DNA of 64,000 nt from Azolla caroliniana. Its lineage: Eukaryota; Plantae; Polypodiophyta. The position numbers and the translations under genes are program-made. Below, piece by piece: positions 540 through 57,605 of this stretch. The number at the start of each line of letters is the position of its first letter. The stretch's first letter is position 1. Below the pieces are notes generated by a model that saw only the letters and a program-made list of their open reading frames with translations, had not been told where the DNA came from and did no database searches. The stretch lies in NCBI GenBank assembly GCA_043228905.1, contig JBHGNT010000012.1, forward strand, positions 10,788,001 through 10,852,000. The letters are read 5' to 3'.

Positions 540-614
540 ATTACCTTAATGGTTAGGCTTCGAATTTCGTAATACGAAGTCCTAGGTTCAAGTCCAGTTG
601 AAGCATAATGTTCA
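540..614 (-). mobile_element. 5' stub of a chromovirus-type LTR carrying a tRNA-like module, inserted in the pol of copia A and itself interrupted by the 127-539 LTR
   Basis: The copia A pol frame (..TSVEEAVMNP) breaks at ~614, where the minus strand reads TG. The plus strand has TACCTTAATGG (542-552) and GGTTCAAGTCC (585-595), arranged as in the LTR at 16197-16266. Confidence 0.55.
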
Positions 615-1734
615 TGGATTCATGACAGCTTCCTCCACCGAGGTCAGCTCACTCACTGAGCCTATGATGTCCACCATCAGAGCCATGTTGACAATGTGGT
701 CAGAGGTTCTACCTTGCTCCTATGTTCTTCTTGATCTTCGTAATCGATCAGTTGAAGTTTCAGGAAATGCAACTTTAGGAGTACGGTCATTGAAGAGTTG
801 TTAAGCCCACTTACATATTTTCTTTACATCTGGCACTGGCATAGGCTGAACAAGTGAGCCATTACCATCAAATGGTTCAGCTTCCTTTTCTGGACAGTGG
901 GTCGGGATTGGGGGGAAATACTTCTTCGGTTAATGAGATAACTTGAGAATCGTTGTTCTCAGCTAGCTGTGGTCGTTCCTCATCGAACGCCACATCACAA
1001 CTTGTCAATATCTTTCTTGCCTCTGGATCGTATAGTCGATAGGTCTTTGACTCTTCACTATATCCAAGAAAGATACACTTCTTGCTTTTAGCATCCAACT
1101 TCTTTCTGCTCACATCTTGAACATGTGCGTAGCACGTACACCCAAAGGTTCTGGAGTGCAGCACTGAACGTTTCTTGCCTAAATAAGCTTCTTGGGGTGT
1201 TTTCCCTTGAAGTGCCTTTGTGTAGCTCCAGTTGAGGATGTAAAGTATTGTATTCAGTGCTTCAGCCTAGAATGGGCCGGGCAACACTTGTGCCTTCAAC
1301 ATAGACCTAGCCATCTTGACAATTGTTCGGTTTCGACGTTCAACAACGCCATTTTGTTGTGGGGTGTAGGTTGTTGTATGTTGGCACTTAATTCCATGCT
1401 CTTTGCAATACTCACAAAATTCTATTGATAAGAATTCTTCACCTAGATCAGAGTGTAACTCCTTCACTAACTTTCCGGACTCCCGCTCGACAAACTTATG
1501 CCATCTTTCGAAGATTTTAAAAGCTTCAACCTTCTCTCGAAGGAAGTAAACGCACATCTTTCTATTGATGTCATCGACTACTAGCATATAGTAGAGAGAT
1601 CCACCCATTGCAGGAGTCACCATTTTTCCAGAGAGGTCGATGTGTATTACCTATAGAGTAGTCTTTGTCCGATTTTGACTCTCTTTTGGAATGGCTGATC
1701 TTTGATGTTTGCCCATCATACAAGCATCACAAAC

Positions 1735-2313
1735 TGTAGAGAAACAGTTGCGGAATATAAATCACAATGAAGGAACTACACACTGAAATACGAATCACAC
1801 CGAAATGCCAGAAAAGACAACATAAACAGATGTACATAGAGATTTACGTGGAAACCCTAAAACGGGGAAAACCACAGGAGCAGAACTTTACTCTACAAAT
1901 AGTGGATATACACCAAAGATGATTACAACACTCTGTCAAGTGTATCAACCACACACGGCTCTTCGCGTCTGCTGTTACAAACACAGTTATGGCGCGACTC
2001 TTCCTTCTTCTCTCACACACACTCTCTCTCTCTACACAATCTATTCTACTCTGTTTGTCACACCTCTACAGCAACATGTTTTCCGTAGTTGCATATATAC
2101 TTACACAACTTTCTGGTTATTTACATACGTAGCCCTCATGGGGCGAACAATTAGACTATTTACAAATATAGTCTCCCGAGTTGCTATTTACACGATTCCG
2201 GTCTCGGCCGAGGCCAAGTTCCTCATCAACCCGGCTCTTGTTTTCCGACTCTTCGGCTGTCGTCTTTCCGAACAGTCGGATCATCCCCCCACTGGAGGGA
2301 CATATTCCCTACA
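1735..2313 (-). repeat. 3' LTR of copia B
   Basis: TG...CA ends, PPT adjacent, direct repeat of 11720-12281. Confidence 0.92.
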
Positions 2314-4042: not shown

Positions 4043-4509
4043 TGTTGAGAAGCAAGCTCAACATGGTATGCGATGCTTATTGGGAAATAAGCTATAGTAG
4101 CTATTTAGCTACTAGTGAACAAAAAGGTAAAACAGCTATTTAGCTAGTGACAGCTAATTAGCTAGTGAACAGCTATTTAGCGACTGACAGCTAATTAGCT
4201 ACTGGCAGCTAATTAGCTGCATGTGTAATAACTTATGACTTAGGTAAAAGTAAGTGAGAGTGAATAGGAAGTAAGAAGTAAGAAAAAACAGAGTATAGTG
4301 AGTAGAGAACTCTGAGAGAGTGAGAGACCAGAAGACTGACGAGAGCAAGTTGAGCTCTACATGTAATAGAAGAAAACCATTTTGTTACTACAGAGGTAAG
4401 TCCCCTTTCCTTTCTCTGTCTGTTTAGAGCACGCTAACGATCCAGCACACTACGATCCGCCGCGCATACAAAAGAAGAGCCCGAGTGCCTTCTTCACGTT
4501 TTCTTAACA
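4043..4509 (+). repeat. 5' LTR of copia C
   Basis: Direct repeat of 9019-9485, followed by the PBS. Confidence 0.97.
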
Positions 4510-4653
4510 TGGTATCAGAGCAGAGTAGCTCGTAAGGAAGAGTATAGCAGTGCCTTAATCTGAGAAAGTTATTTCTCTGGTTGCTGATCAGAAATCAGAA
4601 AGTTACTTGTTGAAGTAACTAAAGCAAAACCCTGGTTTTTTGGAAGGAAAAAA

Positions 4654-7600
4654 ATGGCTGCAGAGAATGTAGGCCAAATGGTCACAGAGAAATTAGATAA
4701 AAACAATTTCCCGGCGTGGAAATTCAGAATGACAAACTTTCTGATGGGGAAAGGATACTGGGATTACATTGAAGGAGACCTAGAAGAGGCTCCAGAGATC
4801 CCAGAAGAGAATGCAACAGCTGCACATATTAAGGCATTTAAAGATTGGAATCAAGGGGCAAGGAAAGTAATGCATTGGCTATCACTCAGCATCTCAGATT
4901 CAATGCTTGGGCATATACAAGATGCTATGCTCCCAAAAGAAGCTTGGGACAACTTGGTAAAACTGTTTGCTGTGAACACAAAGGCTAGAAAGCTCCAGTT
5001 AAAGACTGAGCTAAATACCTTGGAGAAAGGTAAGATGTCAATAAATGAATATGCCTTAAAAATCAAGAGTATATGTGAATCACTTGCTTCTATCAATGTG
5101 AAGATAGAAGATGATGACAAAGTGGAAATATGCTTAAGAGGCTTAGGACCTCAATACAAGAGTTTTAAAACTTCTATGCTCACAAGGGATAGTATCCCAA
5201 GTTTTTCAGATCTAGTCTCAATGCTTGTGGTAGAGGAAAGGAATCAGATGGATGATGCAAATAAAGGAAACTCAGAGAACGAGGGGCAAGCCCTCTATAA
5301 TAATGCCGGAAGAGGCCGAGGAAGAGGCCATGGAAGATTTGGCTCAGGAAGAACCAATAATAATGGCTTTCAAGGAAGAGGACAACAAGCTCATAGAGGA
5401 GGAAACAACAACAGAGGCAGGGGGAGCAACCGAGGTAGAGGTAAGCAAACTTATGTAAATGATGATGGCTGCTGGTATTGTGGTAAACCAGGCCATACAC
5501 AGGCTGAATGTTACAAGAAACAAAATGATGAGAAAAGAGGAAAAGGACAACAGAGTAACTATGCCTCTACTAGTGAAGATTGTGAAAAGGAAGGTGTTTG
5601 TGTAGTGCAACATGAGATAGCAGCAGTGGCTGAAAGCTCACAGAAATGTAATGAAGAGTTTACGTGGTATGTAGACTCGGGAGCATCTAACCATATGACT
5701 GGACATGCAAATTGGTTTGAGAGTTTAAGAGAACCAGAGGTTCCTAGTTATGTACAAACAGGTGATGACACAACTCACCAAATAAAACATGTTGGAGATA
5801 TCCCATTGTGGGAAGAAAGAGGAAAAACCAAGTATATGTTGGATGTGATGCATGTTCCAAATCTTGCTAAGAATCTGATTTCTGTTGGACAGATAGTAGA
5901 GCAAGGTATGCAAGTAAAGTTTAAGCCAAGTGGATGCTATATAGAAAAGAATGGGAAGCTCATTGCAAAAGGGAAGAGACAAGGAAGAATGTTTATCTTG
6001 GATGTAGAAATGCCCAAACAGATTTCAGCCATGTTTGCAAATGGAACGAGTGTAATCTCAGATGTGGAAATGTGGCATAAAAGGATTGGCCATATAAGTA
6101 TGCAAACATTAAAGAATATGTTGAGAAAAGATGCAGTGGCTGGACTGCCAAACTTGAAAAAGTGTGAAATGGGAAAAGTATGTGAAGCATGTCAATATGG
6201 TAAGCAAAACAGATTGCCATTCCCTCATGAGAGACATGTAAGCAAAAATCTGTTGGATTTGGTACATACAGATGTATGGGGACCAACAAAGAATGCATCT
6301 ATCGGTGGATGCAGATTTTATGTTACATTTATTGATGATTGTTCACGGAAGACATGGGTGTACTTCATGAAGGAGAAAAGTGAAGTATTTGACTGTTTTC
6401 GTAAGTTTAAATGCATGGTAGAAAAGCAGGCTGGTACAAGGATAAAATGTTTGAGATCTGATGGAGGAGGAGAGTATTTCTCCAATGAATTTTCTGATTT
6501 TTTGTGTAATCAGGGAATAAGAAGACAGTTCACATGCCGATATACTCCACAGCAAAATGGAGTTGCTGAGAGGAAAAATAGAACTTTGGTGAACATAGCA
6601 AGGGCAATGATGATTGAGAAGAACATGCCATTATACTATTGGGCAGAAGCTGTAAATACAGCAAATTACATTTTGAATAGATGTATTACATCAGGAGTAC
6701 ATGAGGCAACTCCTGAAGAGTGTTTTTATGGCAGGAAGCCTAGCTTACAACACTTGAAAGTGTTTGGATGCCTTGCATATGTACATGTGCCTGTAGAAGT
6801 AAGAAGTAAGTTGGATCCAAAAGCAGAAAAATGTATCTTTGTTGGATATTCAGAAGAACAAAAAGGGTACAGATGTTATAACCCTATGACTAAAAAGATT
6901 GTGACAAGTCGAGATGTGATATTTGATGAGTTGGCTAGTTGGTACAGCCCAAAACAGAATCTAGAGACTGATGAAGACTGTCAAAATGAAGACAAAGACA
7001 GATCAGAAAATGTAGAAGACTGTCACAGAGATGGAGACAAGGTTGGACAGCAAAGTCCAACATCAACAGAATGTTCTGGACCATCAAAAAGCTCAGATGG
7101 TAAATCTGATTCAAATTCATGGAGTGGAAAAACTGGACAGAAAAAATCTGATGACAAAAAAGGAAAACAGAAAATGCCAGAGTATGAAATCCCGGATGAC
7201 CTATCAAAAAACATGGAAGATGAAGATTCAGATATGTCTTTGGATGATTTCCTTGGAATACAGGAAATGAAAATCCCTGGTATGGAAAAGGCAATAAAGA
7301 ATGCAAATCAGAAACTGAGAAGATCAGATAGAGAGAAAAAGACTGTGGAAAGATTTGGGTATGATACATATATGGCTATGCACTATGCATATATGTCTAA
7401 GGTGGTACAGATCCCTGACCCAAACAGCTTTGAAGAAGCAAAATCTGAGAAGAAATGGATGGATGCAATGCAAGAAGAGATTGATGCATTGGCTGAGAAC
7501 AAAACGTGGGATTTAGTGAAGTTACCAAAAGAGAAAAATGTGGTAGGCTGCAAATGGGTCTACAAGACAAAGCATGACTCCAATGGGAATGTAAGTAGAC

Positions 7601-9000
7601 ATAAAGCAAGATTGGTTGCAAAAGGATATGCTCAGATGCAAGGGATTGATTATGATGAGACTTTTGCACCGGTTGCAAAGATGGCAACCTTGAGAACACT
7701 ACTTGCTGTAGGAGCAGCCAGAAAATGGATTTTGCATCACATGGATGTAAAAAATGCTTTTTTACATGGTAACTTGGAAGAAGAAGTGTATATGAGTCAA
7801 CCACCAGGTTTTGAAGATAAGAAACATCCTGATTATGTATGTAAGCTGAAAAAAGCTCTCTATGGACTGAAACAGACACCAAGAGCATGGCACAGAGAAC
7901 TTTCAGATTCTCTGAAAAATCTTGGTTTCAAAATGTCAAAAGCTGATCCTTCTTTGTATGTAAAAAGTGAAAATGATTGCATTGTTATTATTCTGATTTA
8001 TGTAGATGATTTGATTATTGGAGGAGATTCCGTGGATGAAATAAGAAAGTTGAAAAAAAATCTGGAAATGCAGTTTCATATGAAAGATTTGGGAGATCTG
8101 AGATATTTTCTTGGTATTGAAATCATCAGATCTGAAAGTGGTATATGTATGTTGCAAAAACAGTATGCAACAACTATGTTGAAAAAGTATGGTATGCTTG
8201 GATGCAAACCTATTGTTGTACCACTTGATAAAAACTGCAAGTTGAGGGCTGATTTGGGAGCCAAGATAGAAGATGTAAACATGTACAGGTCTATGGTGGG
8301 CAGCCTTATTTATTTGACTATAACAAGACCTGATTTGAGCTATGTTGTTGGATTAGTCAGCCAGTTTATGCAACAGCCAACAAAGCCACATTTGGACTGC
8401 ATCAGAAGGATTCTGAGGTATGTAAAAGCAACTCAGAACTTTGGACTATGTTACAGGGCTGATCTAGACATAAATCTGGAAGGATATACAGATGCTGATT
8501 GGGCTGGAAGCCAAACAGACAGGAGATCCACAAGTGGATACATGTTTACCCTGGGAAGTGCAGGAATTTCATGGAGTAGCAAGAAACAGGCTACTGTTGC
8601 ATTGTCCAGTACAGAAGCTGAGTATAGAGGGGCTGCAATAGCCACATGTGAAGAGGTATGGATTAGAAGATTGCTTGCTGATTTGGGAGAGTATATAGAA
8701 GGTACTGTCACAATCTGGTGTGACAACATGAGCAGCATTCAACTTGCAAAGAACCCTGTGTTCCATGCAAGAACAAAGCACATTGAAGTGCATTATCACT
8801 TTGTTAGAGAAAAAGTGATTGAAGGAGAAGTTGATCTGGTGTATGTGAATACAAATCAGCAGGTTGCTGATATTCTCCCAAAGGGATTGAGTGTGGAAAA
8901 GCATACACAGTTTCGGAACATGATGGGAGTTGTAAACATTGATGAGATGGCTAAAAAGCAAATGGAAAAGAAGATTGTAGATAACCCCAAGAAAGGATAA
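4654..9000 (+). CDS. Ty1/copia Gag-Pol polyprotein (1448 aa)
   Basis: Domains in copia order: Gag N-terminus KLDKNNFPAWKFRM, CWYCGKPGHTQAEC knuckle, protease WYVDSGASNH, integrase HHCC and DDE (TPQQNGVAER), RT YVDD, RNase H CDNMSS..HARTKHIEV. Confidence 0.97.
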   Translation: MAAENVGQMVTEKLDKNNFPAWKFRMTNFLMGKGYWDYIEGDLEEAPEIPEENATAAHIKAFKDWNQGARKVMHWLSLSISDSMLGHIQDAMLPKEAWDNLVKLFAVNTKARKLQLKTELNTLEKGKMSINEYALKIKSICESLASINVKIEDDDKVEICLRGLGPQYKSFKTSMLTRDSIPSFSDLVSMLVVEERNQMDDANKGNSENEGQALYNNAGRGRGRGHGRFGSGRTNNNGFQGRGQQAHRGGNNNRGRGSNRGRGKQTYVNDDGCWYCGKPGHTQAECYKKQNDEKRGKGQQSNYASTSEDCEKEGVCVVQHEIAAVAESSQKCNEEFTWYVDSGASNHMTGHANWFESLREPEVPSYVQTGDDTTHQIKHVGDIPLWEERGKTKYMLDVMHVPNLAKNLISVGQIVEQGMQVKFKPSGCYIEKNGKLIAKGKRQGRMFILDVEMPKQISAMFANGTSVISDVEMWHKRIGHISMQTLKNMLRKDAVAGLPNLKKCEMGKVCEACQYGKQNRLPFPHERHVSKNLLDLVHTDVWGPTKNASIGGCRFYVTFIDDCSRKTWVYFMKEKSEVFDCFRKFKCMVEKQAGTRIKCLRSDGGGEYFSNEFSDFLCNQGIRRQFTCRYTPQQNGVAERKNRTLVNIARAMMIEKNMPLYYWAEAVNTANYILNRCITSGVHEATPEECFYGRKPSLQHLKVFGCLAYVHVPVEVRSKLDPKAEKCIFVGYSEEQKGYRCYNPMTKKIVTSRDVIFDELASWYSPKQNLETDEDCQNEDKDRSENVEDCHRDGDKVGQQSPTSTECSGPSKSSDGKSDSNSWSGKTGQKKSDDKKGKQKMPEYEIPDDLSKNMEDEDSDMSLDDFLGIQEMKIPGMEKAIKNANQKLRRSDREKKTVERFGYDTYMAMHYAYMSKVVQIPDPNSFEEAKSEKKWMDAMQEEIDALAENKTWDLVKLPKEKNVVGCKWVYKTKHDSNGNVSRHKARLVAKGYAQMQGIDYDETFAPVAKMATLRTLLAVGAARKWILHHMDVKNAFLHGNLEEEVYMSQPPGFEDKKHPDYVCKLKKALYGLKQTPRAWHRELSDSLKNLGFKMSKADPSLYVKSENDCIVIILIYVDDLIIGGDSVDEIRKLKKNLEMQFHMKDLGDLRYFLGIEIIRSESGICMLQKQYATTMLKKYGMLGCKPIVVPLDKNCKLRADLGAKIEDVNMYRSMVGSLIYLTITRPDLSYVVGLVSQFMQQPTKPHLDCIRRILRYVKATQNFGLCYRADLDINLEGYTDADWAGSQTDRRSTSGYMFTLGSAGISWSSKKQATVALSSTEAEYRGAAIATCEEVWIRRLLADLGEYIEGTVTIWCDNMSSIQLAKNPVFHARTKHIEVHYHFVREKVIEGEVDLVYVNTNQQVADILPKGLSVEKHTQFRNMMGVVNIDEMAKKQMEKKIVDNPKKG

Positions 9001-9018
9001 GTTGAGCTTGAGGGGGAG

Positions 9019-9485
9019 TGTTGAGAAGCAAGCTCAACATGGTATGCGATGCTTATTGGGAAATAAGCTATAGTAGCTATTTAGCTACTAGTGAACAAAA
9101 AGGTAAAACAGCTATTTAGCTAGTGACAGCTAATTAGCTAGTGAACAGCTATTTAGCGACTGACAGCTAATTAGCTACTGGCAGCTAATTAGCTGCATGT
9201 GTAATAACTTATGACTTAGGTAAAAGTAAGTGAGAGTGAATAGGAAGTAAGAAGTAAGAAAAAACAGAGTATAGTGAGTAGAGAACTCTGAGAGAGTGAG
9301 AGACCAGAAGACTGACGAGAGCAAGTTGAGCTCTACATGTAATAGAAGAAAACCATTTTGCTACTACAGAGGTAAGTCCCCTTTCCTTTCTCTGTCTGTT
9401 TAGAGCACGCTAACGATCCAGCACACTACGATCCGCCGCGCATACAAAAGAAGATCCTGAGTGCCTTCTTCACGTTTTCTTAACA
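9019..9485 (+). repeat. 3' LTR of copia C
   Basis: Preceded by the PPT; direct repeat of 4043-4509. Confidence 0.97.
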
Positions 9486-11719
9486 CAGGTTGGATAACTC
9501 CAACTCATATTCATCAATTGACTTCAGCAGCTCTGCCGACTCTGACTCATAGTCTGTCGGTCTTTCCGAGTCGACCAACTCGGATTTGGCTTTGTCGGCC
9601 AGCTGTCTCCTTACAGTTGCTAGTGACGACTCACTTGGCCTTAACTCAATGATAGTCAAGGTTGACTGGGGAGTCGGTTCCGACTTCTGTTGCTTCCAGT
9701 CTTCAATTGTCTTATCTTCAAGAAAGACTACATCTCGACTTCTCACTACCTTCTTATCGACTAAGTCCCACAACCTGTAGCCGAACTCATATTCCGAGTA
9801 TCCCATGAATATGAATGCTTTCGACTTGCTCTCGAGCTTTGACCTCTGATCCTTTGGTACACGCATATACGCCAAACATTCGAACACCCTCAGGTGTTGG
9901 TAGGAGACATCCTTCCCTGTCCACACCCTTTGTGGGACATCACCCTTTAATGGCACTGAGGGAGACTTGTTGATCAGATAAACAATTGTGTACATCGCCT
10001 CAACCCAATAGTATTTCGGTAGTTTTGCATGGGAGAGCATGCTCCTTACTCTCTCCATGATTGTTCGATTCATCCTCTCTGCAAGCCCGTTCAACTTGGG
10101 GCTTTGGCAATGTGTATTGGATCCGAATACCTTGGCTGTTGGAGTATTCTTCGAACTGCCCTTTGTACTCACCATCGTTGTCGGTTCGAACAACCTTTAG
10201 TTTCCGACCCGACTCTCTTTCGGTTCTTGCCTGGGAATCCTTGAGTACGAAGGCCCATGTCTTCTGACTATAGTTGTCAATAAACGTTACAAAGTATTGT
10301 CCTCCTCGATGCGATGGAGTATCCACATAGCACACATCCGTGTGCACTAGTTCCAGTGCAGCTTCTCTTCTCCTCGGTGGTCTCGAGTGGAATGCCGCCC
10401 TATTCTGCTTTCTGGCTAAGCAGTCAACACACTTCTCCATGTGCATTCCCTTCTTGCTCATGTGGCCTAGCCTCTTATGCCATATCTCCCCTGTCGAGTC
10501 GGCTGCCACGTTTACTTCCGATTTGCACAGTCGGGCATGCATCATGTACAATGTGCCTTCTTTCTATGCTTGGGCCACTATGAGATTTCCTCTGCAGAAC
10601 TTCCACTTGCCATTCCGAAAGCTACCACTGTAGCCTTCGTCGTCAAGCCTTCCAGTCGATATCAGATTCAATCTGCTATCGGGGATGTGTCGAACATCCT
10701 TCAACGTTAGTCGACACCCTATCGACGTCGTTAAGCACAGACTTCCAACTCCGGTTATCTTGCACTCTCCACTATCACCTATCTTTACATAGCCATGATC
10801 TCCGGATATGTAAGTCGAGAAATACTCTCTCGACGGAGTAATATGGAAGGATGCACCGTAGTCAATCACCCACATGCAATCTTCACTCGCAAGATTTGCA
10901 CTCATCTATTCACAAATGAACAGGATTTCCTCATTGCTTGTAGCAATGGCCGAAGTGTTCTTTTCATCCGGAATTTTCCGGGGTTCGACATTATTTCCAA
11001 CACTGTTGTCTTTTCTCATGTGTCAGCAGTCCTTCTGGAAGTGTCTAGGTTTTCCACAATAAAAGCACACAGGCTTACCTCTGGACTTCGATCTGGCGTG
11101 CGATTTGTCCGTTCGCTGCAGACTTCTTCTTCTCCGGTCCCTTCCTCTGTCCATATGTTGAGTTAGATTCGACTTTGTTTGGGACATGACTCCTTTGTCT
11201 TTCCTCCTTGCCTCCTCATTTAGGATGCTTGTCTTCACCGTCTATAAAGACAAGTTGTCTTCTTGACAGCAGATGCTGAGAGTAACCACCAAGTTCTCCC
11301 AGCTTTCCGGCAATGTGCAAATCAGCAGGATGGCCTGCATTGCATCATCTAGGGGGAACTTGGTCATTACAAGTTGATTTACATACCCCATAAATGTGTT
11401 GATGTGTTCGACGATGCTCTCACCGTCTCTGTATTTCAGCCGCACGATTTTTCTCATCAGCGAGGTTCTATTGAGAGCGTTCTTCCTCTCATAAAGACTT
11501 GATAGCTTCTACCACATCTCATAAGCATTTGTGTCGTTCGCCACATGCTAAAGGACACTTACATCGACGCATTGTCGGATAGTGGCAACGGCCTTTTTGT
11601 TTAGGAGCTTCCAGTCTGACTCCAATACCCCCCTGGGTATTTTTGCTCTGTCGACTGGCTCGTACAGGTTTTTTACTATGAGAAAGTCTTCCATCTTGAT
11701 CTTCCAGTGTGCATAGTTC

Positions 11720-12281
11720 TGTGAAATCGTTGCGGAATATAAATCACAATGAAGGAACTACGCACTGAAATACGAATCACACCGAAATGCCAGAAAAGAC
11801 AAGATAAACAGATGTACATAGAGATTTACGTGGAAACCCTAAAATGGGGAAAACCACGGGAATAGAACTTCACTATACAAATAGTGGATATACACCAAAG
11901 ATGATTACAACACTTTGTCAAGTGTATCAGCCACACAAGGCTCTTCCCGTCTGTTGTTACAAACACAGCTATGGTGTGGCTCTTCCTTCTTCTCTCACAC
12001 ACACTCTCTCTCTACACACAATCTATTCTACTCTGTTTGTCACTCCTCTACAGCAACATGTTTGCCCTAGTTGCATATATACTTACGCAACTTTCTAGTT
12101 ATTTACATACGTAGCCCTCATGGGGCGAACACTTAGACTATTTACAAATATAGTCTCCCGAGTTGGCTATTTACACAATTCCAGTTTCGGCCGAGGCCGA
12201 GTTCCTCATCAACTCGGCTCTTGTTTTCCGACTTTCCGAATAGTCGGATCATCCTCCCACTAGAGGGACATATTCCCAACA
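11720..12281 (-). repeat. 5' LTR of copia B (PBS missing)
   Basis: Direct repeat of 1735-2313 with scattered substitutions and a ~15-bp indel; abuts gag codons QNYAHWKIKM directly. Confidence 0.88.
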
Positions 12282-15824: not shown

Positions 15825-16266
15825 TGTTAGGAACGGTACTAAGATAGAGAAGTAATGTCAGGAACAATACTAAGATAGAGAAGGAATTAGTACTAAAAGA
15901 TGAGGATTAGTACTAAGGGAGGTGTAGAACTCTCGAGAGAAGGAAAGAGTGAGTGAGAGAGAGAGAGAGAATGATGATAACAAAAGATATATATTATGTT
16001 AAGAGAATATACAATAGTAGATAGGAGGCTTAAGACTAGCGTTGAACCGATTTGGTTCGAAATAATGCCTTGTGCCTCCTTTTATAGTGTTCTCAAGAAT
16101 ACTCCTGAAGTTTCTAGAATGTTCCAAAGAAATCTAGTACATCAATTTTCTATAGTAAAACTTAAATGAAAATAATATCCTTCGTATTACAACATATAGT
16201 CTAATGGTCAAGAGCTCGACCAATGTAACATAAGGTCATGGGTTCGAGTCTTGCCATATCATGACA
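15825..16266 (-). repeat. 3' LTR of chromovirus G, with a tRNA-like module, HSE and TATA box
   Basis: The minus strand starts TGTCATG right after the PPT. A-box at 16197-16207, B-box at 16241-16251, HSE at 16107-16124, TATAAAA at 16080-16086 (minus). The other terminus has a 31-bp duplication. Confidence 0.85.
16107..16124. promoter_or_regulatory. Perfect 4-unit heat-shock element in an LTR
   Basis: GAAgtTTCtaGAAtgTTC, ~20 bp upstream of the LTR TATA box. Confidence 0.7.
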
Positions 16267-19200
16267 TTATCCCCCCTTTAAAACGACGAGTGTCATGAGT
16301 CGTTTTGGATTGAGGACCTGGTTTGTCTGGATATTGACGATGGGAGTCTTAAAAAAGAGCACGAGCATTGGTCACATTCTCTATTGGTTCCCAAGTACGC
16401 TCATTGGGACTATATCGTAGCCAATCGACTTAAATAGTAGAACTTGTTGCAAACAATCTTGGAATCGAGGATGGCGGCAACCTCGTACTCAGGTCCGTCT
16501 TCAAGTTCGATTAGGGGTGGAGATTGTTTAATACAATCTGGGATGGTGCTGTCTTGATAGGGTTCGAGGAGAGAACTATGAAACATTAGATGTATCCGAA
16601 GTTGTGGAGGTAGATCAAGACTAAAAACGACATCGTTAATTGTTTTGATAATACGGAAAGGACCTAATCGCCGATAATCCAACTTCTAGCATGGGCGAGT
16701 AGTCTTGATGTGTCATCGTAGTAGCCATACCCGATTGCCAATGTTAAAACTGGATGGAAGCCGATGACGATCCGCATAAACCTTGTGTGTTTGTTGAGCT
16801 TGTTGTAGATGAGTAGATAAATCCGCTTATATCTTGCATAACCGCTACAAACGATCCTCTGCGCAAGGATTTGTGGGTAACTTTGGGGTTTCAAATACAC
16901 ACCACCGGGGGTGATAGCCTGTATAAGCATAAAATGGTGTAACCTTTGTCGATGAGTGGACAGAGTTATTATACGCAAATTCGGCGAAGTGGAGAATATC
17001 CGCCCAATTATCTTGTTGATAGCGTAGAAAGCACCGAAGATACTGCTCCAGCATTTGATTTGTTCGTTTGGCCATCAGTTTGCAGGTGATAGCCGGAGGA
17101 GAGGTTACAAGTGACTTTGACCATTTTAAAGAGGTGCTTCCAGAATTTAGAGACGAATTGGGGTCCACGGTCGCCGATGATACTATCGGGAAGGCCATGA
17201 TGCTGACATACTTCACGCATGACAGTTTCAGTGGTTTCCTCACTAGATATTTCCTTAGTACATGGTAGGAAATAGGTCATCTTCATATATCGATCTACTA
17301 CTATTAAGATTGCATCGAATCCCTTAGAGACTGGAAGATCTGTGATGAAATCTAGAGCAATGGATTGCCATGGCTTGCTTGGAATTGGTAATGGTTCTAA
17401 TAAACCATATGGATGATGCCTTGGCATTTTTGCTCTTCAACATGTACCACAAGTCCGAACAAAATCTTCGACAAATTGACGCATATGGGGCCACCAAAAT
17501 GATTGTTGTACTAAATCTAATGTTTTAGTACTACCAAAATGCCCAATTGTATATGTGTCATGACAGTTTTGGACTACTCAAAGGCGACAAGAACCATTAG
17601 GAACATACAAGAGTTTCTTAAAGAATAGTAATCCATCATGACATTCGAATTGTCGATAGTCCATACCTGGTTGTTGCGACTATGAACAAGATGCTCGAGA
17701 GGGATCAATTTGTGCTAGAATGGCTTGGGTGAACGCATTTGTCTTCAAGTCCTCACGTATGGTATTGATAACGTGGGAATCCAAGGCCATACCGAAGACC
17801 TGCGTTGCTTGCAGTCGTGCTGGTCCCAAGATTACTTGCTTTTGGTTATCGAAAGTTGGCTCGCTAGGACACGGTGCTAGATATGAGCGTCGTGATAATG
17901 CATCTGCCTTCCCTTGTTGCTTCCCTGGACGATATGTAATGTTGAAGTTGAAACGAGTGAGGAATTGAGCCCACCGATCTTGACGTCGATTTAACACACA
18001 AGCATTCTGAAAGTAGGCAAGGTTTCTGTGATCACTGAATACGGTGACTTGATAAGAAAATCCCTCTAGAAAATGCCACCATTGCGTAAAAGAGTCCACT
18101 ATTGCCAATAGCTCCTTATAATGAATTTCATAGTTGATTTCAGCGGCGTCAAGCTTGCGTGAGTGGAAAGTCACAAGATGAAGCTTTTCATCATCGCCTT
18201 GTTGTGACAGAATGCTACCCAACGCGAAATTCGACGTGTTTGCTTTGATGATGAATGGTTTTTCCAGATCAACATGAGCCAGAATAGGAGCTAATGTAAA
18301 TGCCTTCTTAAGATTCTCAAAAGCCATGTCTGCTTCTTCAGACCAAACGAACGATTGTCCCTTCCTGGTGAGTTGTGTGAGAGGTAGAACAAGCTTTGAG
18401 TAATCCTATATAAACTTGCGGTAGAAATTGGCAAAGCCTAAAAAGCATTGCACATCTCGCAACGAACGCGGAGTCTGCAACTCTACCACCGTTTTGACCT
18501 TAGTTGGATCCATGGAGATGCCTTTCGAAGTGCCCATATCTAGTGTGAAACGTGGTCTTCCATTCATCTCCTGGTCGGATCCGTACGAGGTTATATGCTC
18601 CTCGTAAGTCGATCTTTGTGAAGAACCTTGCACCATTGATCCGTTCTAAAATACTTGAAATAGGGGGAAATGCATACCTATTCCTGATGGTGACCTTATT
18701 CAAGCCAAGGTAATCTACGACGAGACAAAGTGATCCATCCTTTTTCTTGACGAAGAAAATGGGTGTGCCGACTGGAGATTTTGAATGTCGAATGAAACCA
18801 TTTGCCAAATTCTCCTCTATATAGGCTCGAAGGACTTCTAGCTCGATTGGTGACAAATTGTAGATTGGTCCCCATGGTGGCTCTTTTTCCAATTGTAAAC
18901 CGATGGAGCAATCATACGATTGATGGTGAGGAAGCGTATTGGCTTGTACTTTATCGAACACATCGGCATAATGACAATACTTCTCTGTAAGTTGAACGGT
19001 GGAATCCTCTTTAGTGGTGTTGGAGGGTTTTACTGATACTGCGAAGAAAAACATTTCTTCCTTGCGTCCTTCCTCACGCAACTGATGTAGCGAAATGGTT
19101 GCAATCTTATGAGTAGATCATTGGGTTTGTCGATACCGGATTTCCCTTGTTCTCCAATCTACGTCTGGGTTATGTAATTCGAACCATGGTAATCCCAAAA

Positions 19201-20826
19201 CAATGGGATGTTCTGGGATACCAATTATATTAAAGGATACTACACCTGCTAAATTATCTAGGACAATATTAAGGGGCTCTGACTCTTTTATGATATTTCC
19301 AGATGCAATGGGACAACCATCAATGACTACTACAAAGGTTGGACACGGGAGTTTTCTTAGGGATATCTGATGAGCTTGGGCAAAATTCCTATCCATGAAG
19401 CAAGAATTAGCTCCGGAATCTAGGAGTGCAGAGACATGTACTAGAGAGGTACTTTTAGTACTAACCGTTACTTGGGCTAAGAACACATTGCTATCTTGCT
19501 TAGAGGGAATGGAACTACTAATGGGCAACCAAACGTTGTTGTCCAACCAAATGGTTCCTATTTTGGCTGGGCTTAGTCGTTTAACTCTTCTTCTAACTGA
19601 CTAAGGACATCAAATTTGTTCGATAGATTTGGGCTATTAGTACTATTAGGACTATCAAATATTCCTACTGAAATAGACTCGGGTTTAGAACAATTAGAAC
19701 TAGCAACTATTTGGTTCACCTGTCTTCTTGGCCTATGGGGACAATTCACTGCAATATGCCCTAGTCCACCGCAATAAACACACAGTCGATTTGCTCGTCG
19801 TCGCTGCTTTTCTTCTCCCGATAATGGTCTACGACGATGTGTAGTGTCAATTTCCATCGGAGTTGGAGTATTCACTGGAGACACATTATATGACTCCCTT
19901 GTAAAAGGTTTTGCTACCACTGAGGCGTAGGTGGGCTCTGATCTTGCCCTTGGCATTTGTAACTGATGTTCCAAACGTCGTTCGAAAAGACGGTTGTCGC
20001 ATCTCACCACGCAACTGATTGCTTCTGTCAATGACTTTGGTTCTTCGGGGAAGATCAAGAGTAAATCCTTGACATCGTTACGTAGACCATAACAAAATTG
20101 CTCCATAAGTGCTTGGTCATCCCAGGGGATATCGAGGTGAGTAGGCGGAAATCTGCAGTGTATGCGGAGGCTGGACGATCACCTTGACCTAATCGTCGGA
20201 TTTTGTTTATTTTTATCCTTATGCTATTAGTATCTCCAAAACAGGCTTTAAACTCACTTAAAAACTCTCCAAATTTGTTTAGTAAAGGAGATTCCTTTTC
20301 TAACAACAGAGTGAACCATGCCAAAGCTGAGCCACTTAACAATGTGCCTACTAAACCCACTCGTGATGCATCGGTGGGATATTGAGAAGGATACATTTGA
20401 ATGACTAATCGTACTTGATTAAGGAATCCTCTAAACTACGATCGCGTTCCATCAAATTTTATGGGAAGGTCGATCTTGGGTTCTTTATAAACCCCTTGAA
20501 TACTGGGTCCTTGTTGTTGCATCGCGACTTTGGTTGCTTCAAGCTGTTGCACATGTAACGTTAGTTTCCCATGTTGTTGTTGCGTCAGCTGCTTCTCTAA
20601 GGATTTTTGTTGAAGCTCCCCCAACAGTCGTTGATTTTCTTGTTCCAATGCAAGAAACTTCTCTTTCAAGCATTGCAACTCCGAAAAAACAGATTGATAT
20701 TCTTGAGCGCTAACAATGGCCATAGTATGAGAGAAAGGAGGAATAAGAGATTAGTATGAAGGGAGGGAGAAGTAAGAAGATAAAGGAAGAGAAGGAAGGT
20801 GTTACGGGCATGACCATATAATATCC

Positions 20827-24625: not shown

Positions 24626-24920
24626 AAGACTGGTGTTGAATCCCTTGAAAGGGACCAAGGAGGTTACAAGTATTTATACTATGAGTTGAAGTACATGCAT
24701 TAGAATATTCTTGAGAATATTTTGGAGAATATTCTAGAACCCTCTAGAACCTTTTAGTTCTAGAACATTCTAAAAACTCATAGAACGTGAATCAATAAGC
24801 TATGAAGATATATATAACACGATTATGTACTTGGATGTGTTGGTTACAATATAACACTTGACTATAATACAAGAGGTCAAGAGTTTAAACCTTGACATAA
24901 TTGTTGTCATGTCTGTGACA
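24626..24920 (-). mobile_element. Truncated chromovirus-type LTR (G-like architecture)
   Basis: The minus strand starts TGTCAC at 24920. Degenerate tRNA-like segment at 24833-24892, HSE-like array at 24703-24770, TATAAATA at 24671-24678, TTCAACACCAGTCTT at 24626-24640. Confidence 0.65.
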
Positions 24921-37520: not shown

Positions 37521-38587
37521 TGTTGGCATGGAAGGATTCCCCAAATTAGGTAGAGGGAAGAACTCTATGAAACACGACTACAATTTTCTTCAATTAGAAA
37601 ATGTTGCCTGATATTTTGCTTTGTGGGAAAAATTGTAGTAGGATGAGGGAAGTTGGCAGCTAACAAAGTTAAGGAACTCTTTGCATGGTTAGGTATAAAA
37701 CTTTCTTACAATCTATGATGGTCATCATGTGATGGCAATGCTCAAACCCTTGACTTACATGTACATATGCCACATGGTTGTTAGGTACGGTAATGATACC
37801 ATACGTATTTAACGTATTAATACGGGTATAGTACCTCCCAATTTTAAAATACGTTAAATACGTTTTTTAGTATGTTAAATACCTATAAAATACATAAAAT
37901 ACGTATAGTACGTTAAATACGTTAAATACTTCTAGAATTTGAAATTTATTTACTTTCTTAAAAAATATTTGTAATATTGTAATATTGTAACCGTGTATAT
38001 GCAATGTAACGAAGCATTCCATGGCTGTAGTTGCATCTTAAAAGTACTAAAGGGCAAATCGAGCAAATATGAGAATCAAAAGGATACAAATCAACAAATC
38101 AAATAGATATTTGTTAGGTAAAAAAAAACCCAAACTTGTTGGGCATTTGCAACAACAGCCAAGGCCACGAAGCAAAAACTGTATATCCCTCACATGATTG
38201 AGGGAATTCACATGATGAGTCATGACAAGCTAAAATTCTACAAAAAAAATCGTACTTTTGACAAAAACAACACTTTGACAAGAAGTGCAACATACCTATT
38301 GAAGAAAAGACCACATCTTTTGATTTGGAAAAAACCTTCAGAACACATAACATCGAATATTTGAGATACACTTACATTGCATTTTGTCAAAGAAATAGAA
38401 TGCATTGTAGGAACAAAATTTAGAAAAAAACCTTAACAACACATAACATCAGATATTTGACTTCTAAGAACACATAACTTGAACTATGTCCAAGACTCTA
38501 ATGTATCAAAATGGGCTTAGATCAAAGAAAAGTAACATATGGCTATTGAGCTTAGTAATAATGTACAGAAATCAGAAATATTAGCCA

Positions 38588-41316
38588 TTAGATCTCGTCC
38601 TCATCACAATCACCATCTTCATCATCAGATTCAGTGTTAGTTGATGACATCAACATAGGTTCTTCGTCAGTAAGATCATCATAATTTGTATGAATTGCTT
38701 CTTCTATTCCATTGACATTATCTTGATCATTTGGTGGTAAAGAAGCAAATGTACTTGATCTTGTTATTCTCCTATTACAAGAAGACTGCTCATCATCTCT
38801 TCTTGGCCTCTGCCTCCGTATTCGATCAATAGGGACTCCATCGCTTGATGTTGTCGTATGTGATCTTGTCATGCTCCTTGTCCTTCTTCTCATGCTCATT
38901 GTTTCTTGAAAATAAGTTTCATAGAATTCTCTATCCATATCATTCTCGTGGCTAATAGATGGAATATCAGGAGTCTTAGAGACATCTATCTCATTTGGAT
39001 TCACCTGCAAACAAGTTTATAAAAGCTTAACGAAATTTGAGGAATGTAAATTATAAGAAGTGAATAAAACAATACCTGCATTGGAGATGCATTCACAGTC
39101 TCAAACTTGCGAACTAGCCTTAAGTTCTCTCGCACATATACCAATCGTTCAAGTTGTGCTACCTTTAGTCTGTTTCTATTTTTTGTATGTGCGAGAGCAT
39201 GTGCATTCCAATTCCTTTCTGCTGCCCCAGAAGAGCAATCCTAATAGAAAACAAAATATGAAATAAAAGGTAGTACACAAAAGTGCAGTATTTTAGAACT
39301 TAACTATAAAATTGATCATTTTTTCAAAACTTGACACTTACTTGGGATAATATGCGGACAGCTAATGCTTGGAGCTTTGGAGTTCTTCCACCAAAATTTT
39401 CCCACCATGTGACTGGCGTCATCATAGATATCTCTTCACATGCTAATGCATAGCTAAATGTCCCTGTACCATTTCGATATTCATGCAATTCACGAAATAA
39501 GATATCACATTCAAGTGTCGAGTACAATTTTTCTGTATAGCTCATCCATGCATCCATTAACTCGGGGTTAATAAATGTAGCCTCCTCTCTCTACATCGGA
39601 TGCAGCAAATGAGCTACAAGGTGGATCGGCCTCTTGAACCATTTCCATCGTATGTCAAATAACTTCAAAACATCTTCGTACCTAAAAGGGTATTAGTAAT
39701 TACAAAATGATCTGATCTTAAAACATGAGAAAACATTTGGAGGTTTAATGCTAGGAAACCATAAAAAATTAAAATAAATATGAAATTTACTTGGATTTGT
39801 GGGGGATGTTTTCTTCCACTCCTTTTGCTAAAACATCTTTGCTTCTTCGCATAAACTCATATAACAAACCAATAGTGGATCCCTCCCTATTAGTAAGTCG
39901 TAAAACACTATACAATGGTGCCATTAGGGTCAAAACAACTTGAAACGAGGACTCAGTTGTAGGATCAAGGATGTAGTTCTTTACATTCATGGCATCTGGC
40001 TTATTGCAATCTGACCAAGACCTCCACATGTCACTCACCACTGTTTACTCAAGAGGATACCAAACTTTGAGCAAACGTTGTATGACAAGGTACATCACAC
40101 CAAACCTTGTCTTAGAAGATCTCAAGATGGCGAGGTTACTGTGAGCAGAAAAAAATTTCCTAGCATTCCTCTTCTTGCAAAAAAAACGTACGATATTATT
40201 TGCTTTCAACATAATACTTTTCATCCAAGGCAGCTGACCAATGTCCTCCAAAAGTAGATCCAAAGAATGGGTTGCACATGGAGTCCAAACAATATTAGGG
40301 AACTCTGATTCTAGCAAAGACCCCATGCGGACACAACTAGATGCATTGTCTGAAATGACTTGGACCACATTTTCCTTACCAACTTCACTAATTGCCTCTG
40401 AAATTCTTTCAGCTAACCAAGAGCTATCAACTGTTGGTGTTGTATTAGCATGACTACAATCAATGGACTTGAGGAACTTTGTCCCATAACAAGATGATAC
40501 GAGGACATTTACAAGTTGCCTATGAGAAACATCAACCCATCCATCTGTTAATATAGAACAACCATACTTGGGCCATAATCCTTTTACCCTTTCTAACTTT
40601 GCTTGCAAGGATATAACCTCATTTTTCAAGCCTTTCGTCCTCATGTAATTATATGTGACTCCATTATGTTTCTCTCCAATTGTAGAGAAAGCTTCTAACA
40701 TGTTCCACCAACATGGTGTTTTTAATAGATTAAATGACAAATTTGCTTCAATGATACATCTCACCTCCATAACGTTTGCATGTTGTTTCCTTTGCATTTG
40801 TAACACATGTCCTTTACGCAACGGTTGTTGTTTCACTATAATTGTTGGTGGATATGGTTGGCGACTACCACCACCCATACATGACATGCTTTGACTTTCA
40901 TCAACAAAGGTAGACGAGCATGAGGTAGAAACACCTAAAAGAAAATAAAATTCAAGATAAATAATTTACAATTATTTAAACATTAGTAATCAAGACACCT
41001 ATTGTAGGCTTGTGTCTATACCTTGTTCAGGCATGTTGAATGAGTCGATCTCTACTACTATATCTTCTTCTTCGCCAATTGCTTGGCTTCCACAATTACC
41101 ATACAAAGTTGTAAGGTCAATCAACATTTCCTTGGGGACATTGGTACATTTCGTTACTCCATGGCTAGGTTTTCCAATTAAATGAGCAATCATTCGTGTT
41201 GTTGACCCATGCATATGTTTGTTGCAAAATTTACAGTTCCAACTCCTATTTCTTGTTTGACTTCTTACGACATTGAGGCAACATGTATCCCAATATTTGT
41301 TCTTAATGGGCGGCAT
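38588..41316 (-). pseudogene. Intron-containing hAT transposase pseudogene (BED finger, DUF659-type core, C-terminal dimerisation region)
   Basis: YW..WNCKFCNK..GSTTRMIAHL..C (BED), CSILTDGW, VVQVISDNAS, WTPCATHSLDLLLED, TRF, and PVTWWENFGGRTPKLQALAVRILSQ; in-frame stops, for example at 40045. Confidence 0.88.
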
Positions 41317-41699
41317 TTTCCTTCTTTATTTTCTACAAATCAATAAAATTGAGATATTGAAAATGGAAAATAATGCACAAAAAGAGGAGCAAGATTATAT
41401 GAATGCATTAAAGCAAATCGAAGAACTGAAAACTTTGAATAGATCAACCTTCAGGGAGGATGAGGATTATACTACTTTAAATAAGCAACTACAGGATACT
41501 CAAGAGTATCTTTTATTCATAGAAAGCAAATACAAGAAAATGTTACAATTAAGGAAATGTATAAAAACAGAAAATTCAACTCTTTTGGAAGTTAAAAAGG
41601 AAGCAAAAATTACCATAACTTAACTAAAGAGCCTTAATGCTTAACGTAATAACGACATGCATAAAAGCAAAAAATTCAACAAGTTTGGAAGCCAAAAGG

Positions 41700-42180
41700 G
41701 AAGTAGCATTTGGTCAAGAAATCTATCTTGAAGATGTACAGAAAGGGTTCGATGAAGATCTATTTATTCATAGTGCTTTGCTAGATATGTATGTCAAATG
41801 TGGATCTATAGTGGAAGTGCAAAATGTTTTCAACCGAATGTCCAACCGAGATGTGGTATTATGGACAACATTGATTGCATGATATGCTGAGCATGGACCC
41901 GTTGAGGATGCATTGAAAAGCTTTGAAAAGATACAAGATGAGGGGATACTTATTACTACCAAACACTTCACCTTTTCTTGTGTCTTAAAGGAATGCTCTC
42001 ATTGGAGGGTTTGTTGAGTATAGAACTACTGAGAAAGCATTAGATTCTTTCGATAAAATGCAAGTTGATGGAATCTTTCCGGATGCATATACATTGCCCA
42101 TGTCCTAAAAGTGTGCGGTTTATTAGGGCCTACAGATAAAGGACAATCCATGTATATGGAGGCTGTATTGAAAGGGTTCT
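41700..42180 (+). pseudogene. PLS-class PPR gene fragment inside the hAT element
   Basis: SALLDMYVKCGSIVEVQNVFNRMSNRDVVLWTTLIA*YAEHGPVEDALKSFEKIQDEG..FTFSCVLKEC, followed by ALDSFDKMQVDGIFPDAYT. Confidence 0.82.
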
Positions 42181-42828
42181 AGCAAGTGCACATTTATTCA
42201 TACCCATCACATTCAAAAGCAGACAACCAAAACCATGATATTCCAAAAACTGAGTAGCTGTTAACAAAAATAAATATGCATTGCAAATGATAAAAAATGG
42301 GACATCATTAAAAAGGACCAAGCACTTTTTCCCATGACACGAAATTGAGATCTTCAATGTTTCTGGAAACCAATGTCATTTATAGTAACATGGAAAGTAA
42401 ATTAGAATGATCAATTTCTGAAATGAATTCAAATGGGATACAACCACTAAAATCAATAAGCAAAGGATTAGCTAATGCTACAAATTGTGAAAGATTTTGA
42501 ACACATTGTCTACATGTATACATACATGTTTGAGTTTCAACACATGGTTCCTATAATATTTTATCTCAACACTTGCAAAGAGGAGAGTTTTATTGCATGA
42601 CGTCAATTACAATTGTCTACCAATTTGTTACTTGTATAGATGCATTATTGTGGAATAGATAGATTGCTGGACACAAGCATACGTAAACTAGATCAACTAA
42701 AAATTAAATCTCCCTTGTCATTTGGTATTATCATACAACTTGACATTGGAATACAACAAAATGGGAGGTATTCTTAATCATAAAAAATAAAAGAAAGAAA
42801 CATATTCACTAACCTGATTGTATTTTCA

Positions 42829-42940
42829 TCTTCTTGTTCTTCTTGTTCTTGTTCTTGTTGTTGTTCTTCTTCTTGTGCTTCTTCTTCTTCTTCTTCTTCT
42901 AGTGCTTCTTCTTCTTCTTCTTCTTCTTCTTCTTCTTCTA
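42829..42940. repeat. (CTT)n-type microsatellite in the hAT 5' region
   Basis: Imperfect TCT/TGT run. Confidence 0.9.
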
Positions 42941-43266
42941 AGTCTATTCTGTCCGTCTTTCTTCCTTCCTTCTATTTTACTAAAGTTGTTCTTTTCTTTT
43001 GCTTTCTTTAGGGTTTTACTCACATTTTCTATAAATACGTACTATACGTATTTTTTTAAAGGTACGTTAAATACCGTATTAGACGAATGTATATGACATT
43101 TGAATGAACAACTTTGACGTATGGTACGTACTATACAAATAAGAAGGTATTATACGTATTGATACGTTAAATACGCGTACGTAAACAACGCTGATATGCC
43201 AATATCTTAACCATTAAGCCATTTGATAGTCATAATTATTATATTGTAAATGATAGTAGAAACCTA

Positions 43267-53965: not shown

Positions 53966-54335
53966 ATATCCCCATAAACCAAGTCTGAACTCTTGTCTTC
54001 CAACTCGTGGAACCCATCGTCGAAAAGAGGGAATAATGTCATGAAGGCATACATTTTGGCTTATCAGGAGTCAAACCCACAACTTCTTGGTCTATGTGTT
54101 AAACCTTTAACCATTGTAATAATATATATGATATGTAATTATAATAATTATATTTTTAGTTATTATAAGATATATTTAGAATATTCTAGAACATTCTAGT
54201 ATACTCCATAAGGATATATAAATAGGTGTCCATACATTCATCACAACTCATTTGGTTCAACACTAGTCTTTAGCCCTTAGCCTACTCTTTGTAACCTTGT
54301 TTTCTCATAATATAATCTCATTTCCATTTCTTGTC

Positions 54336-56996: not shown

Positions 56997-57040
<44 letters not shown>

Positions 57041-57564: not shown

Positions 57565-57605
<41 letters not shown>

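What the first reader, a model, noticed from the sequence alone, without database searches (positions are those of the whole stretch)
16190..16266. Chromovirus LTRs begin with an antisense tRNA-like Pol III module, shared by five diverged LTRs
Seen: right inside the U3 terminus, on the strand opposite to the element, lies TAGTCTAATGG-33 nt-GGTTCGAGTCT, with D-arm and T-arm-like pairing. The same arrangement recurs in otherwise poorly alignable LTRs. These are 542-595 (TACCTTAATGG-32-GGTTCAAGTCC), 54067-54121 on the minus strand (TATTACAATGG-33-GGTTTGACTCC), the hAT-split LTR at 37738-37772+43202-43221 on the minus strand (TGGCTTAATGG-33-GGTTTGAGCAT), and a degenerate copy at 24833-24892. Known: type-2 Pol III promoters have this A/B-box geometry; Cassandra TRIMs carry 5S-derived Pol III promoters in their LTRs; TFIIIC-bound B-boxes can act as chromatin barriers. 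Inference: this Tcn1-like lineage carries a built-in tRNA-derived cassette that could drive outward or antisense Pol III transcription, insulate the LTR from silencing, or aid priming. I do not know of a description of this.
Basis: partly seen in the sequence, partly recalled or inferred. Interest (0 to 1): 0.85.

Follow-up and report, generated by a model that had tools for sequence, protein, structure and literature searches.

The report
Backward tRNA-promoter boxes in moss retrotransposons
Many families of jumping genes in what is likely a moss genome keep, at the start of their terminal repeats and facing outward, the two boxes of a tRNA-gene promoter while the rest of the tRNA has decayed; the boxes likely bind the host's RNA polymerase III factors and may shield the element's own promoter from silencing, which is untested.

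Summary
Confirmed, and wider than reported. 16197-16251 is an A box and B box 33 nt apart, antisense in U3 of a Tcn1-type chromovirus 3' LTR. Three other window copies hold up; 24833-24892 is too decayed (p=0.09). LTRs picked by their chromodomain carry the pair in 14 of 16 sampled, 30 of 30 youngest, 19 of 20 older and 32 of 39 plant-like metagenome cases, against 0 of 24 outgroup Tcn1 and 0 of 17 Copia rows. Spacing is 32-33 nt in 120 of 123. Across 38 LTR clusters the tRNA-invariant promoter bases stay 0.73 alike, against 0.31-0.40 around them. No cloverleaf or Rfam tRNA score survives, so the DNA boxes, not a tRNA, appear selected. A distant tRNA-Trp-primed Gypsy lineage has the same antisense module, though its two commonest clades lack it. 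Tcn1 copies self-prime, so a priming role is unneeded. Best reading: a TFIIIC/TFIIIB platform protecting the LTR promoter; binding, transcription and barrier activity are untested. Closest known: Helenus and Cassandra TRIMs (non-autonomous). The scan noted related LTR-borne boxes in fungal-like genomes before.

The parts
16197..16207 (+). A box (tRNA positions 8-19), antisense to the element
16233..16236 (+). AGGT at tRNA positions 44-47, as conserved as the boxes across families
16241..16251 (+). B box (tRNA positions 52-62), ending 15 nt inside the LTR edge
15825..16266 (-). 3' LTR of a Tcn1-type chromovirus; its 5' LTR is not in the window
16267..16279 (-). polypurine tract
16112..16119 (.). 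TTCTAGAA palindrome, heat-shock-element-like (label recalled), between A box and TATA box
   Evidence: sequence
16080..16086 (-). TATA box of the presumed Pol II promoter, about 115 nt from the A box
   Evidence: sequence; position in intact relatives
16042..16053 (-). presumed 5' end of the transcript; complementary to the primer site of intact relatives (self-priming)
16340..20722 (-). broken gag-pol with zinc knuckle, protease, RT, RNase H (Pfam) and integrase and chromodomain remnants
542..627 (-). second Tcn1-type LTR start (A box 542-552, B box 585-595 on +); a Copia LTR end lies 1-2 nt before the A box
54037..54121 (+). third Tcn1-type LTR start after a PPT (B box 54067-54077, A box 54111-54121 on -; decayed C56T)
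37719..37772 (+). fourth LTR start with B box 37738-37748 on -, cut by a hAT element
37773..43193 (.). hAT-type DNA transposon (DUF659 frame) inserted between the boxes, 8-bp target duplication
43202..43221 (+). rest of the fourth module, A box 43211-43221 on -, followed by TTCTAGAA repeats, TATA box and self-primer-like motif
24833..24920 (-). degenerate fifth copy at an LTR-like start; not significant alone

Best explanation
The LTRs of these Gypsy retrotransposons carry a tRNA-derived A/B-box pair facing away from their own promoter, which is likely kept by selection as a DNA landing site for the RNA polymerase III factors TFIIIC and TFIIIB and would help keep the nearby polymerase II promoter open against flanking heterochromatin. 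Shown: the boxes, their antisense position in U3 about 110-180 nt from the TATA box, the fixed 32-33 nt spacing, conservation at the tRNA-invariant bases, loss of the cloverleaf, presence in both LTRs and in two distant Gypsy lineages. Inferred: origin from a tRNA gene or tRNA-derived SINE captured after the split from lycophyte and outgroup Tcn1; purifying selection in active copies (about 0.8). Untested: factor binding, any transcript, and the barrier effect.
For: Presence: 14 of 16 sampled, 30 of 30 youngest, 19 of 20 older, 32 of 39 plant-like metagenome LTRs, picked by chromodomain and not by the motif; 0 of 24 outgroup. Spacer 32 or 33 in 120 of 123 with 28-60 allowed, while the B box lies 10-62 nt from the LTR edge. 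Motif-blind alignment of all 38 clusters: positions 8,14,18,19,53-56,58,61 are 0.73 alike, degenerate box positions 10-13 and 59 0.31, positions 26-43 0.38, upstream U3 0.38-0.40. At the B-box CpG, clusters carry the tRNA-compatible G57A 17 times and C56T 3 times; single copies decay the other way, 5 against 10 in the first 100 of 2,749 matches (Fisher p=0.004). No stem pairing above shuffles, whereas real tRNAs pass. The youngest family keeps a full module in 179 identical copies. A lineage with 27% RT identity has the same antisense U3 module, doubled in two families. TFIIIB/TFIIIC limit silencing spread in yeast (PMC9540200, passage); the moss chromodomain element RLG1 sits in heterochromatic islands (PMC7466625, passages).
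Against: No binding, transcript or chromatin data; no RNA run was available. The two most abundant clades of the second lineage (18 and 10 of 40 tree rows) lack the module; only 4 of 30 position-ordered tRNA-Trp-primed LTRs have it. Two iMet-primed chromovirus-like elements and 17 Copia rows lack it, so it is not needed by LTR elements here in general. A 10-copy Tcn1 cluster carries T54C and both LTRs of L273 carry C56T. The B-box CpG decays in 6 of 34 family copies, so most copies are probably methylated and unprotected. Clusters are related, so the Fisher test overstates independence. PMC9540200 says no yeast- or animal-type barrier element has been shown to work in plants.
Confidence: 0.45

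Rival explanations
1. The boxes are a working Pol III promoter whose product matters: a short RNA reading outward from the 5' LTR and antisense over the PPT from the 3' LTR, which tunes silencing or replication.
For: Both boxes and tRNA-like spacing are kept, more than a B-box-only binding site needs. A T4 run follows the B box inside the LTR in 7 of 18 families and just beyond it in 5.
Against: 6 of 18 families have no T4 run in the stretch examined, and its position varies from 0 to 62 nt. The transcribed sequence has no conserved structure.
Confidence: 0.2
2. The sequence works in the genomic RNA: being complementary to the D and T loops of tRNA, U3 pairs with a host tRNA, as the 3' half of the Ty3 bipartite primer site does.
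For: Ty3 U3 pairs with the T and D arms of its primer tRNA (PMC5371799, passage). A tRNA-like stretch in HIV-1 U3-R is known to me only from a reference title (PMC11241228). G57A and T54C would become G-U wobbles, C56T a mismatch, which also fits the asymmetry (inference).
Against: Tcn1 copies here self-prime, with 11-13 nt complementarity that changes in step between families. Position 59 and positions 10-13 vary freely inside the would-be duplexes. The second lineage is primed by tRNA-Trp, whose gene has T52 and A62, while its 7 modules examined have G52 and C/T62.
Confidence: 0.12
3. A neutral relic: a tRNA-derived SINE head landed in an ancestral LTR and is simply inherited.
For: Whole clades of the second lineage do without it; one young copy has lost it from its 3' LTR (L037); other A/B-box repeats exist in this genome as possible donors.
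Against: Drift does not explain near-saturated positions 59 and 10-13 between invariant neighbours, fixed spacing, or the CpG asymmetry, nor the same orientation and place in two distant lineages.
Confidence: 0.12
4. The module is a landing pad that draws Pol III-targeting insertions (Ty3 style) and so builds nested element clusters.
For: A Copia LTR end lies 1-2 nt before the A box at window 542 and another insertion about 10 nt before it in L133. Earlier scan notes propose this for fungal-like genomes.
Against: Only 3 of 69 host flanks of Tcn1 copies have a module within 200 nt, at unlike distances (60, 116 nt, one facing the junction). Other interruptions fall between the boxes (hAT), in the B box (L154) or near the LTR edge (L139).
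Confidence: 0.08

Closest known systems
Helenus TRIMs / TRIMp3 (Kojima 2024, PMC10886601; parts 1-4 of 6 and passages read, supplements not seen)
   Same: tRNA-derived sequence in both LTRs, conservation centred on boxes A and B, mostly no functional tRNA, no role in priming, proposed origin by SINE2 insertion into an LTR.
   Different: Helenus is non-coding and 311-1263 bp, and its boxes are proposed to drive its own transcript (sense orientation is my inference; the text does not state it). Here the hosts are coding 5.8-kb elements with a TATA-type promoter and the boxes face backwards. The paper says 'not a few LTRs' in Repbase resemble part of a tRNA but analyses only TRIMs.
Cassandra TRIMs (as described in PMC10886601)
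   Same: Pol III promoter from a small RNA gene carried in LTRs of a plant retroelement.
   Different: 5S-derived, non-autonomous, transcribes the element itself.
Tcn1 chromoviruses of mosses and lycophytes (PMC2864245 passages and supplement S3; PMC6317226 passages)
   Same: Gypsy domain order, chromodomain, PPT, self-priming site.
   Different: No A/B module is mentioned in the passages read; the Selaginella SM-Tcn1 LTR shows none by eye; outgroup Tcn1 0 of 24.
tRNA-gene/TFIIIC barriers of yeast and B2 SINE boundaries of mouse (PMC9540200 passages; PMC8136502 abstract)
   Same: A/B-box DNA acting on chromatin regardless of the RNA made; mobile in the B2 case.
   Different: Not shown in plants; here built into the LTR of an autonomous element. 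The B2 abstract points to CTCF, which plants lack.
Ty3 bipartite primer-binding site (PMC5371799, passages)
   Same: U3 sequence complementary to tRNA T and D arms.
   Different: Ty3 matches its one primer tRNA; these modules match no primer, and the Tcn1 carriers self-prime.

Membership tests
Tcn1 chromovirus (host element) | Gypsy order PR-RT-RH-INT with C-terminal chromodomain | tested here: met
   Pfam on intact relative L039; window pieces
Tcn1 chromovirus (host element) | self-priming site instead of tRNA PBS | tested here: met
   11-13 nt complement of the R start in 5 of 6 Tcn1 LTR pairs; L285 alignment stopped short
Tcn1 chromovirus (host element) | placement in the Tcn1 clade of a reference phylogeny | tested here: inconclusive
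   no reference set held; chromodomain resembles SM-Tcn1 by eye; own tree only
Type-2 Pol III promoter | A box and B box at tRNA-like spacing | tested here: met
Type-2 Pol III promoter | downstream T-run terminator | tested here: inconclusive
   inside LTR 7, beyond 5, none 6 of 18 families
Type-2 Pol III promoter | TFIIIC binding and Pol III transcription | not testable with these tools
   no raw RNA or ChIP data listed
tRNA gene | cloverleaf and covariance-model score | tested here: not met
Helenus / TRIMp3 | tRNA-derived A/B boxes in both LTRs | tested here: met
   both LTRs of L031, L039, L055, L069, L285
Helenus / TRIMp3 | short non-coding element | tested here: not met
   5.75-5.8 kb elements with 1203-1222 aa pol frames
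Helenus / TRIMp3 | boxes able to drive the element's own transcript | tested here: not met
   antisense in 123 plant-type LTRs; sense hits at p<=0.01 in 4 of 134
Independent SINE2 insertion | own target duplication and tail, mostly outside LTRs | tested here: not met
   none evident in aligned LTR starts; about 51 of 76 high-scoring modules in 1.064 Mb lie in Gypsy LTRs, 15 expected by chance
Phygy (second carrier lineage) | non-chromovirus Gypsy clade of mosses | tested here: inconclusive
   RT-RH-INT, DUF4100 gag, no chromodomain hit in frames scanned, PBS complementary to the genome's tRNA-Trp; no reference Phygy sequence held

The most novel reading that the evidence does not exclude
Autonomous moss Gypsy retrotransposons of two distant lineages carry their own portable Pol III-factor insulator: an outward-facing tRNA promoter in U3 that lets elements inserting into heterochromatin stay transcribable. 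It would be a first tRNA/TFIIIC-type barrier in plants, present in thousands of copies.
Probability: 0.3. Interest if true: 0.85.

Novelty: new variant of a known kind. Interest (0 to 1): 0.63.

Why it matters
Kojima (2024) treats Pol III boxes in LTRs as the promoter of short non-coding TRIMs and argues that autonomous elements must rely on Pol II. Here coding elements keep such boxes backwards, where they cannot make the genomic RNA, so they must do something else. If they act as barriers, they offer a sequence-defined test of tRNA/TFIIIC insulation in plants, which a 2022 review calls unshown, and an answer to how chromodomain elements stay active in heterochromatin. One family alone has 2,749 B-box matches, against 432 tRNA genes annotated in Physcomitrium patens (PMC3729371), so LTRs could be the main reservoir of TFIIIC sites in such genomes.

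Tried and rejected
tRNA fold: ARAGORN, three Rfam scans, RNAalifold and fixed-numbering pair counts were all negative. The hairpin between positions 29-36 and 48-55 in the window's family is not shared across families. Idea that the youngest family had lost the module: L037 is a single deleted copy; 30 of 30 others keep it. Parent tRNA: tRNA-Arg(TCT) scores best most often, but the anticodon-arm signal is weak (z 1.6 and 2.6), only 9 isotypes were scored and tRNA-Trp and Ala were dropped by the script. Expression: no RNA holder listed; two contig runs laid on a young element cannot show strand or starts. Viral contigs gave one distant locus, not analysed. Protection of the box from methylation: CpG decay 6 of 34 at the B box, 3 of 34 in the spacer, 18 of 34 upstream, 9 of 33 in R; the set was picked by a B-box pattern, so this is not interpretable. 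One search's 0.93-0.97 identities come from 28 hand-picked intact modules; the unpicked figure is. A genome-wide census of all module types was not obtained.

Full report
Observation. The window is C12:10788001-10852000 of a 523-Mb genome, likely a moss, since it is rich in Tcn1-type elements, which Neumann 2019 found only in mosses and club-mosses among plants (PMC6317226, passages). At 16197-16207 and 16241-16251 (+) lie an A box and a B box 33 nt apart. They sit at the start of the 3' LTR (16266-15825, minus strand) of a broken Gypsy element with PPT and chromodomain remnant. Scored with a matrix built from 12 tRNA types of this genome, the copies at 16197, 542 and 54121 exceed 1000 of 1000 shuffles; the hAT-split copy has spacer 33 and score 17.0; the 24833 copy is not significant, p=0.093. 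The claimed arm pairing does not hold: no ARAGORN or Rfam tRNA hit, 0 pairs in RNAalifold, and stem pairing at column-shuffle level in 21 Tcn1 and 7 other modules (49-428 of 500 shuffles reach it) while 6 real tRNAs pass (0-9 of 500).

Spread. I collected LTR starts by their upstream chromodomain, not by the motif. An antisense box pair at p<=0.01 is in 14 of 16 LTRs from 1.064 Mb of mid-chromosome stretches, 30 of 30 of the youngest family, 19 of 20 older relatives and 32 of 39 plant-like metagenome LTRs; the 28 of 28 for the window's family were picked by similarity and do not count; one extra chromodomain-like hit in L128 has none. Records with no PPT junction (8) or under 160 nt of LTR were left out. 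The misses are deletions, interruptions or worn copies. A clade of 16 rows with 100/100 support, likely fungal, gives 0 of 24 records, and the Selaginella SM-Tcn1 LTR shows no module by eye (PMC2864245 supplement S3). The hosts of the plant-like contigs are unnamed and may include close relatives of this species. One B-box pattern of the window's family has 2,749 matches; the youngest family, with over 60 identical chromodomains and 1222-aa frames, has 179 identical modules. Both LTRs carry it in L031, L039, L055, L069 and L285.

Selection on the boxes. With 28-60 nt allowed, the spacer is 32 or 33 in 120 of 123, while the B box lies 10-62 nt from the LTR edge. In a motif-blind alignment of all 38 clusters, broken ones included, the ten tRNA-invariant positions are 0.73 alike, the degenerate box positions 10-13 and 59 0.31, positions 26-43 0.38, upstream U3 0.38-0.40; the same ten-position template reaches at most 0.61 anywhere else. 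The list of invariant positions is recalled tRNA numbering. Positions 44-47 (AGGT) are also 0.74. At the B-box CpG, clusters show G57A 17 times and C56T 3 times, while the first 100 single copies listed show 5 and 10 (counted from the listing); Fisher p=0.004, overstated because clusters are related. Against strict need: a 10-copy cluster has T54C, and copies decay at this CpG, so most are probably methylated.

A second lineage. Of 76 high-scoring modules in the 1.064 Mb (15 in a reversed-sequence control), 28 are in Tcn1 LTRs (31 flagged, 3 spurious) and about 23 resemble LTRs of another Gypsy group; those in L045, L273, L282, L293 and L297 were tied to an LTR by a repeat pair or primer site, the rest by eye. 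This group has RT 27% identical to Tcn1, a DUF4100 gag, no chromodomain hit in the frames scanned and a primer site matching this genome's tRNA-Trp; it is Phygy-like. Its module is again antisense and upstream of the TATA box; L293 and L340 have two, plus a sense copy downstream of the TATA box. But only 9 of 43 such LTR regions carry it (4 of 30 in position order), and two abundant clades, 18 and 10 of 40 rows, lack it. Both LTRs of L273 have C56T. Copia LTR pairs: 0 of 17 rows; two iMet-primed chromovirus-like elements: 0 of 2. One or two captures could not be told apart.

Priming. The bases after the 5' LTR are complementary over 11-13 nt to a stretch about 30 nt past the TATA box, and both change together between families: Tf1-type self-priming, as predicted for Tcn1 (PMC6317226). 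The module is not needed as a primer. Ty3-style pairing of U3 with a tRNA (PMC5371799, passages) stays possible but fits poorly: positions inside the would-be duplex vary, and the second lineage's modules do not track tRNA-Trp.

Mechanism. What is kept is what TFIIIC reads on DNA (established knowledge of type-2 promoters), not an RNA structure. Facing outward, the complex would place TFIIIB between the A box and the element's TATA box and, in the 5' LTR, stand between host chromatin and the promoter. I judge a barrier or chromatin-opening role most likely (0.45), then a short antisense or outward transcript (0.2; terminators inconsistent), RNA pairing (0.12), relic (0.12), landing pad (0.08; 3 of 69 flanks, no fixed distance). 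None of the functional steps was tested.

Known work. Nine searches found Helenus and Cassandra but no account of antisense tRNA boxes in coding moss LTRs; most subscription papers and Repbase are not searchable here. Read: PMC10886601 parts 1-4 of 6 and passages; passages of PMC2864245 (plus supplement S3; five .DOC supplements unreadable), PMC6317226, PMC7466625, PMC3729371, PMC5371799, PMC11241228, PMC9540200 and bioRxiv 10.64898/2026.03.01.708851; abstract of PMC8136502. The Helenus supplements were not seen and may bear on orientation. Earlier scan notes describe LTR-borne boxes in fungal-like genomes; none matched this sequence.

Verdict. A real, apparently selected feature; a new variant of small-RNA-derived Pol III promoters in LTRs; interest 0.63.

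Noticed in passing
L292:7194-7640, L293:4447-4890, L340, L284:8428-8829: A tRNA-Trp-primed Gypsy family has two antisense modules upstream of its TATA box and one sense module downstream, so the boxes point outward on both sides of the promoter.
   Followed up: partly
L039, L055, L069, L031, L037; SM-Tcn1 supplement: Self-priming site and the start of R change together between families; the same complementarity is visible by eye in Selaginella SM-Tcn1, where the 2010 paper reported no priming evidence.
   Followed up: yes
L101-L130, L231-L236: Very young Tcn1 family with over 60 identical chromodomain regions and intact 1222-aa frames.
   Followed up: partly
L108, L110, L116, L122 (3' flanks): Young copies abut LTR sequence of their own family, inverted or tandem, at varied positions.
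   Followed up: partly
L037:5270-5600: Young copy whose 3' LTR has lost the whole module and upstream U3 while its 5' LTR (L036:9986) keeps it.
   Followed up: partly
L043:1883, L256:417, L275:9770, L061:2579, L070:2126, L286:6205, L310:5514: Other repeats with A/B-box pairs outside recognised LTRs; possible tRNA-derived SINEs or DNA-element ends, and possible donors.
   Followed up: no
G000 C8:17.80-17.82 Mb, C16:4.99-5.11 Mb, C5:17.99 Mb: Tandem arrays of tRNA-Trp 3'-end matches (65 genome-wide) and of tRNA-Lys genes.
   Followed up: no
window 16112-16119, 43260-43310, 54180-54200: Repeated TTCTAGAA palindromes between module and TATA box in many Tcn1 LTRs, heat-shock-element-like.
   Followed up: no
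window 4043-9485: Young Copia element (1470-aa frame, LTRs 99.4% identical) nested in another Copia (1741-12281).
   Followed up: no
window 31466-35163, 56590-58388, 62486-63142: Host-type frames: AAA ATPase, leucine carboxyl methyltransferase, cytochrome P450.
   Followed up: no
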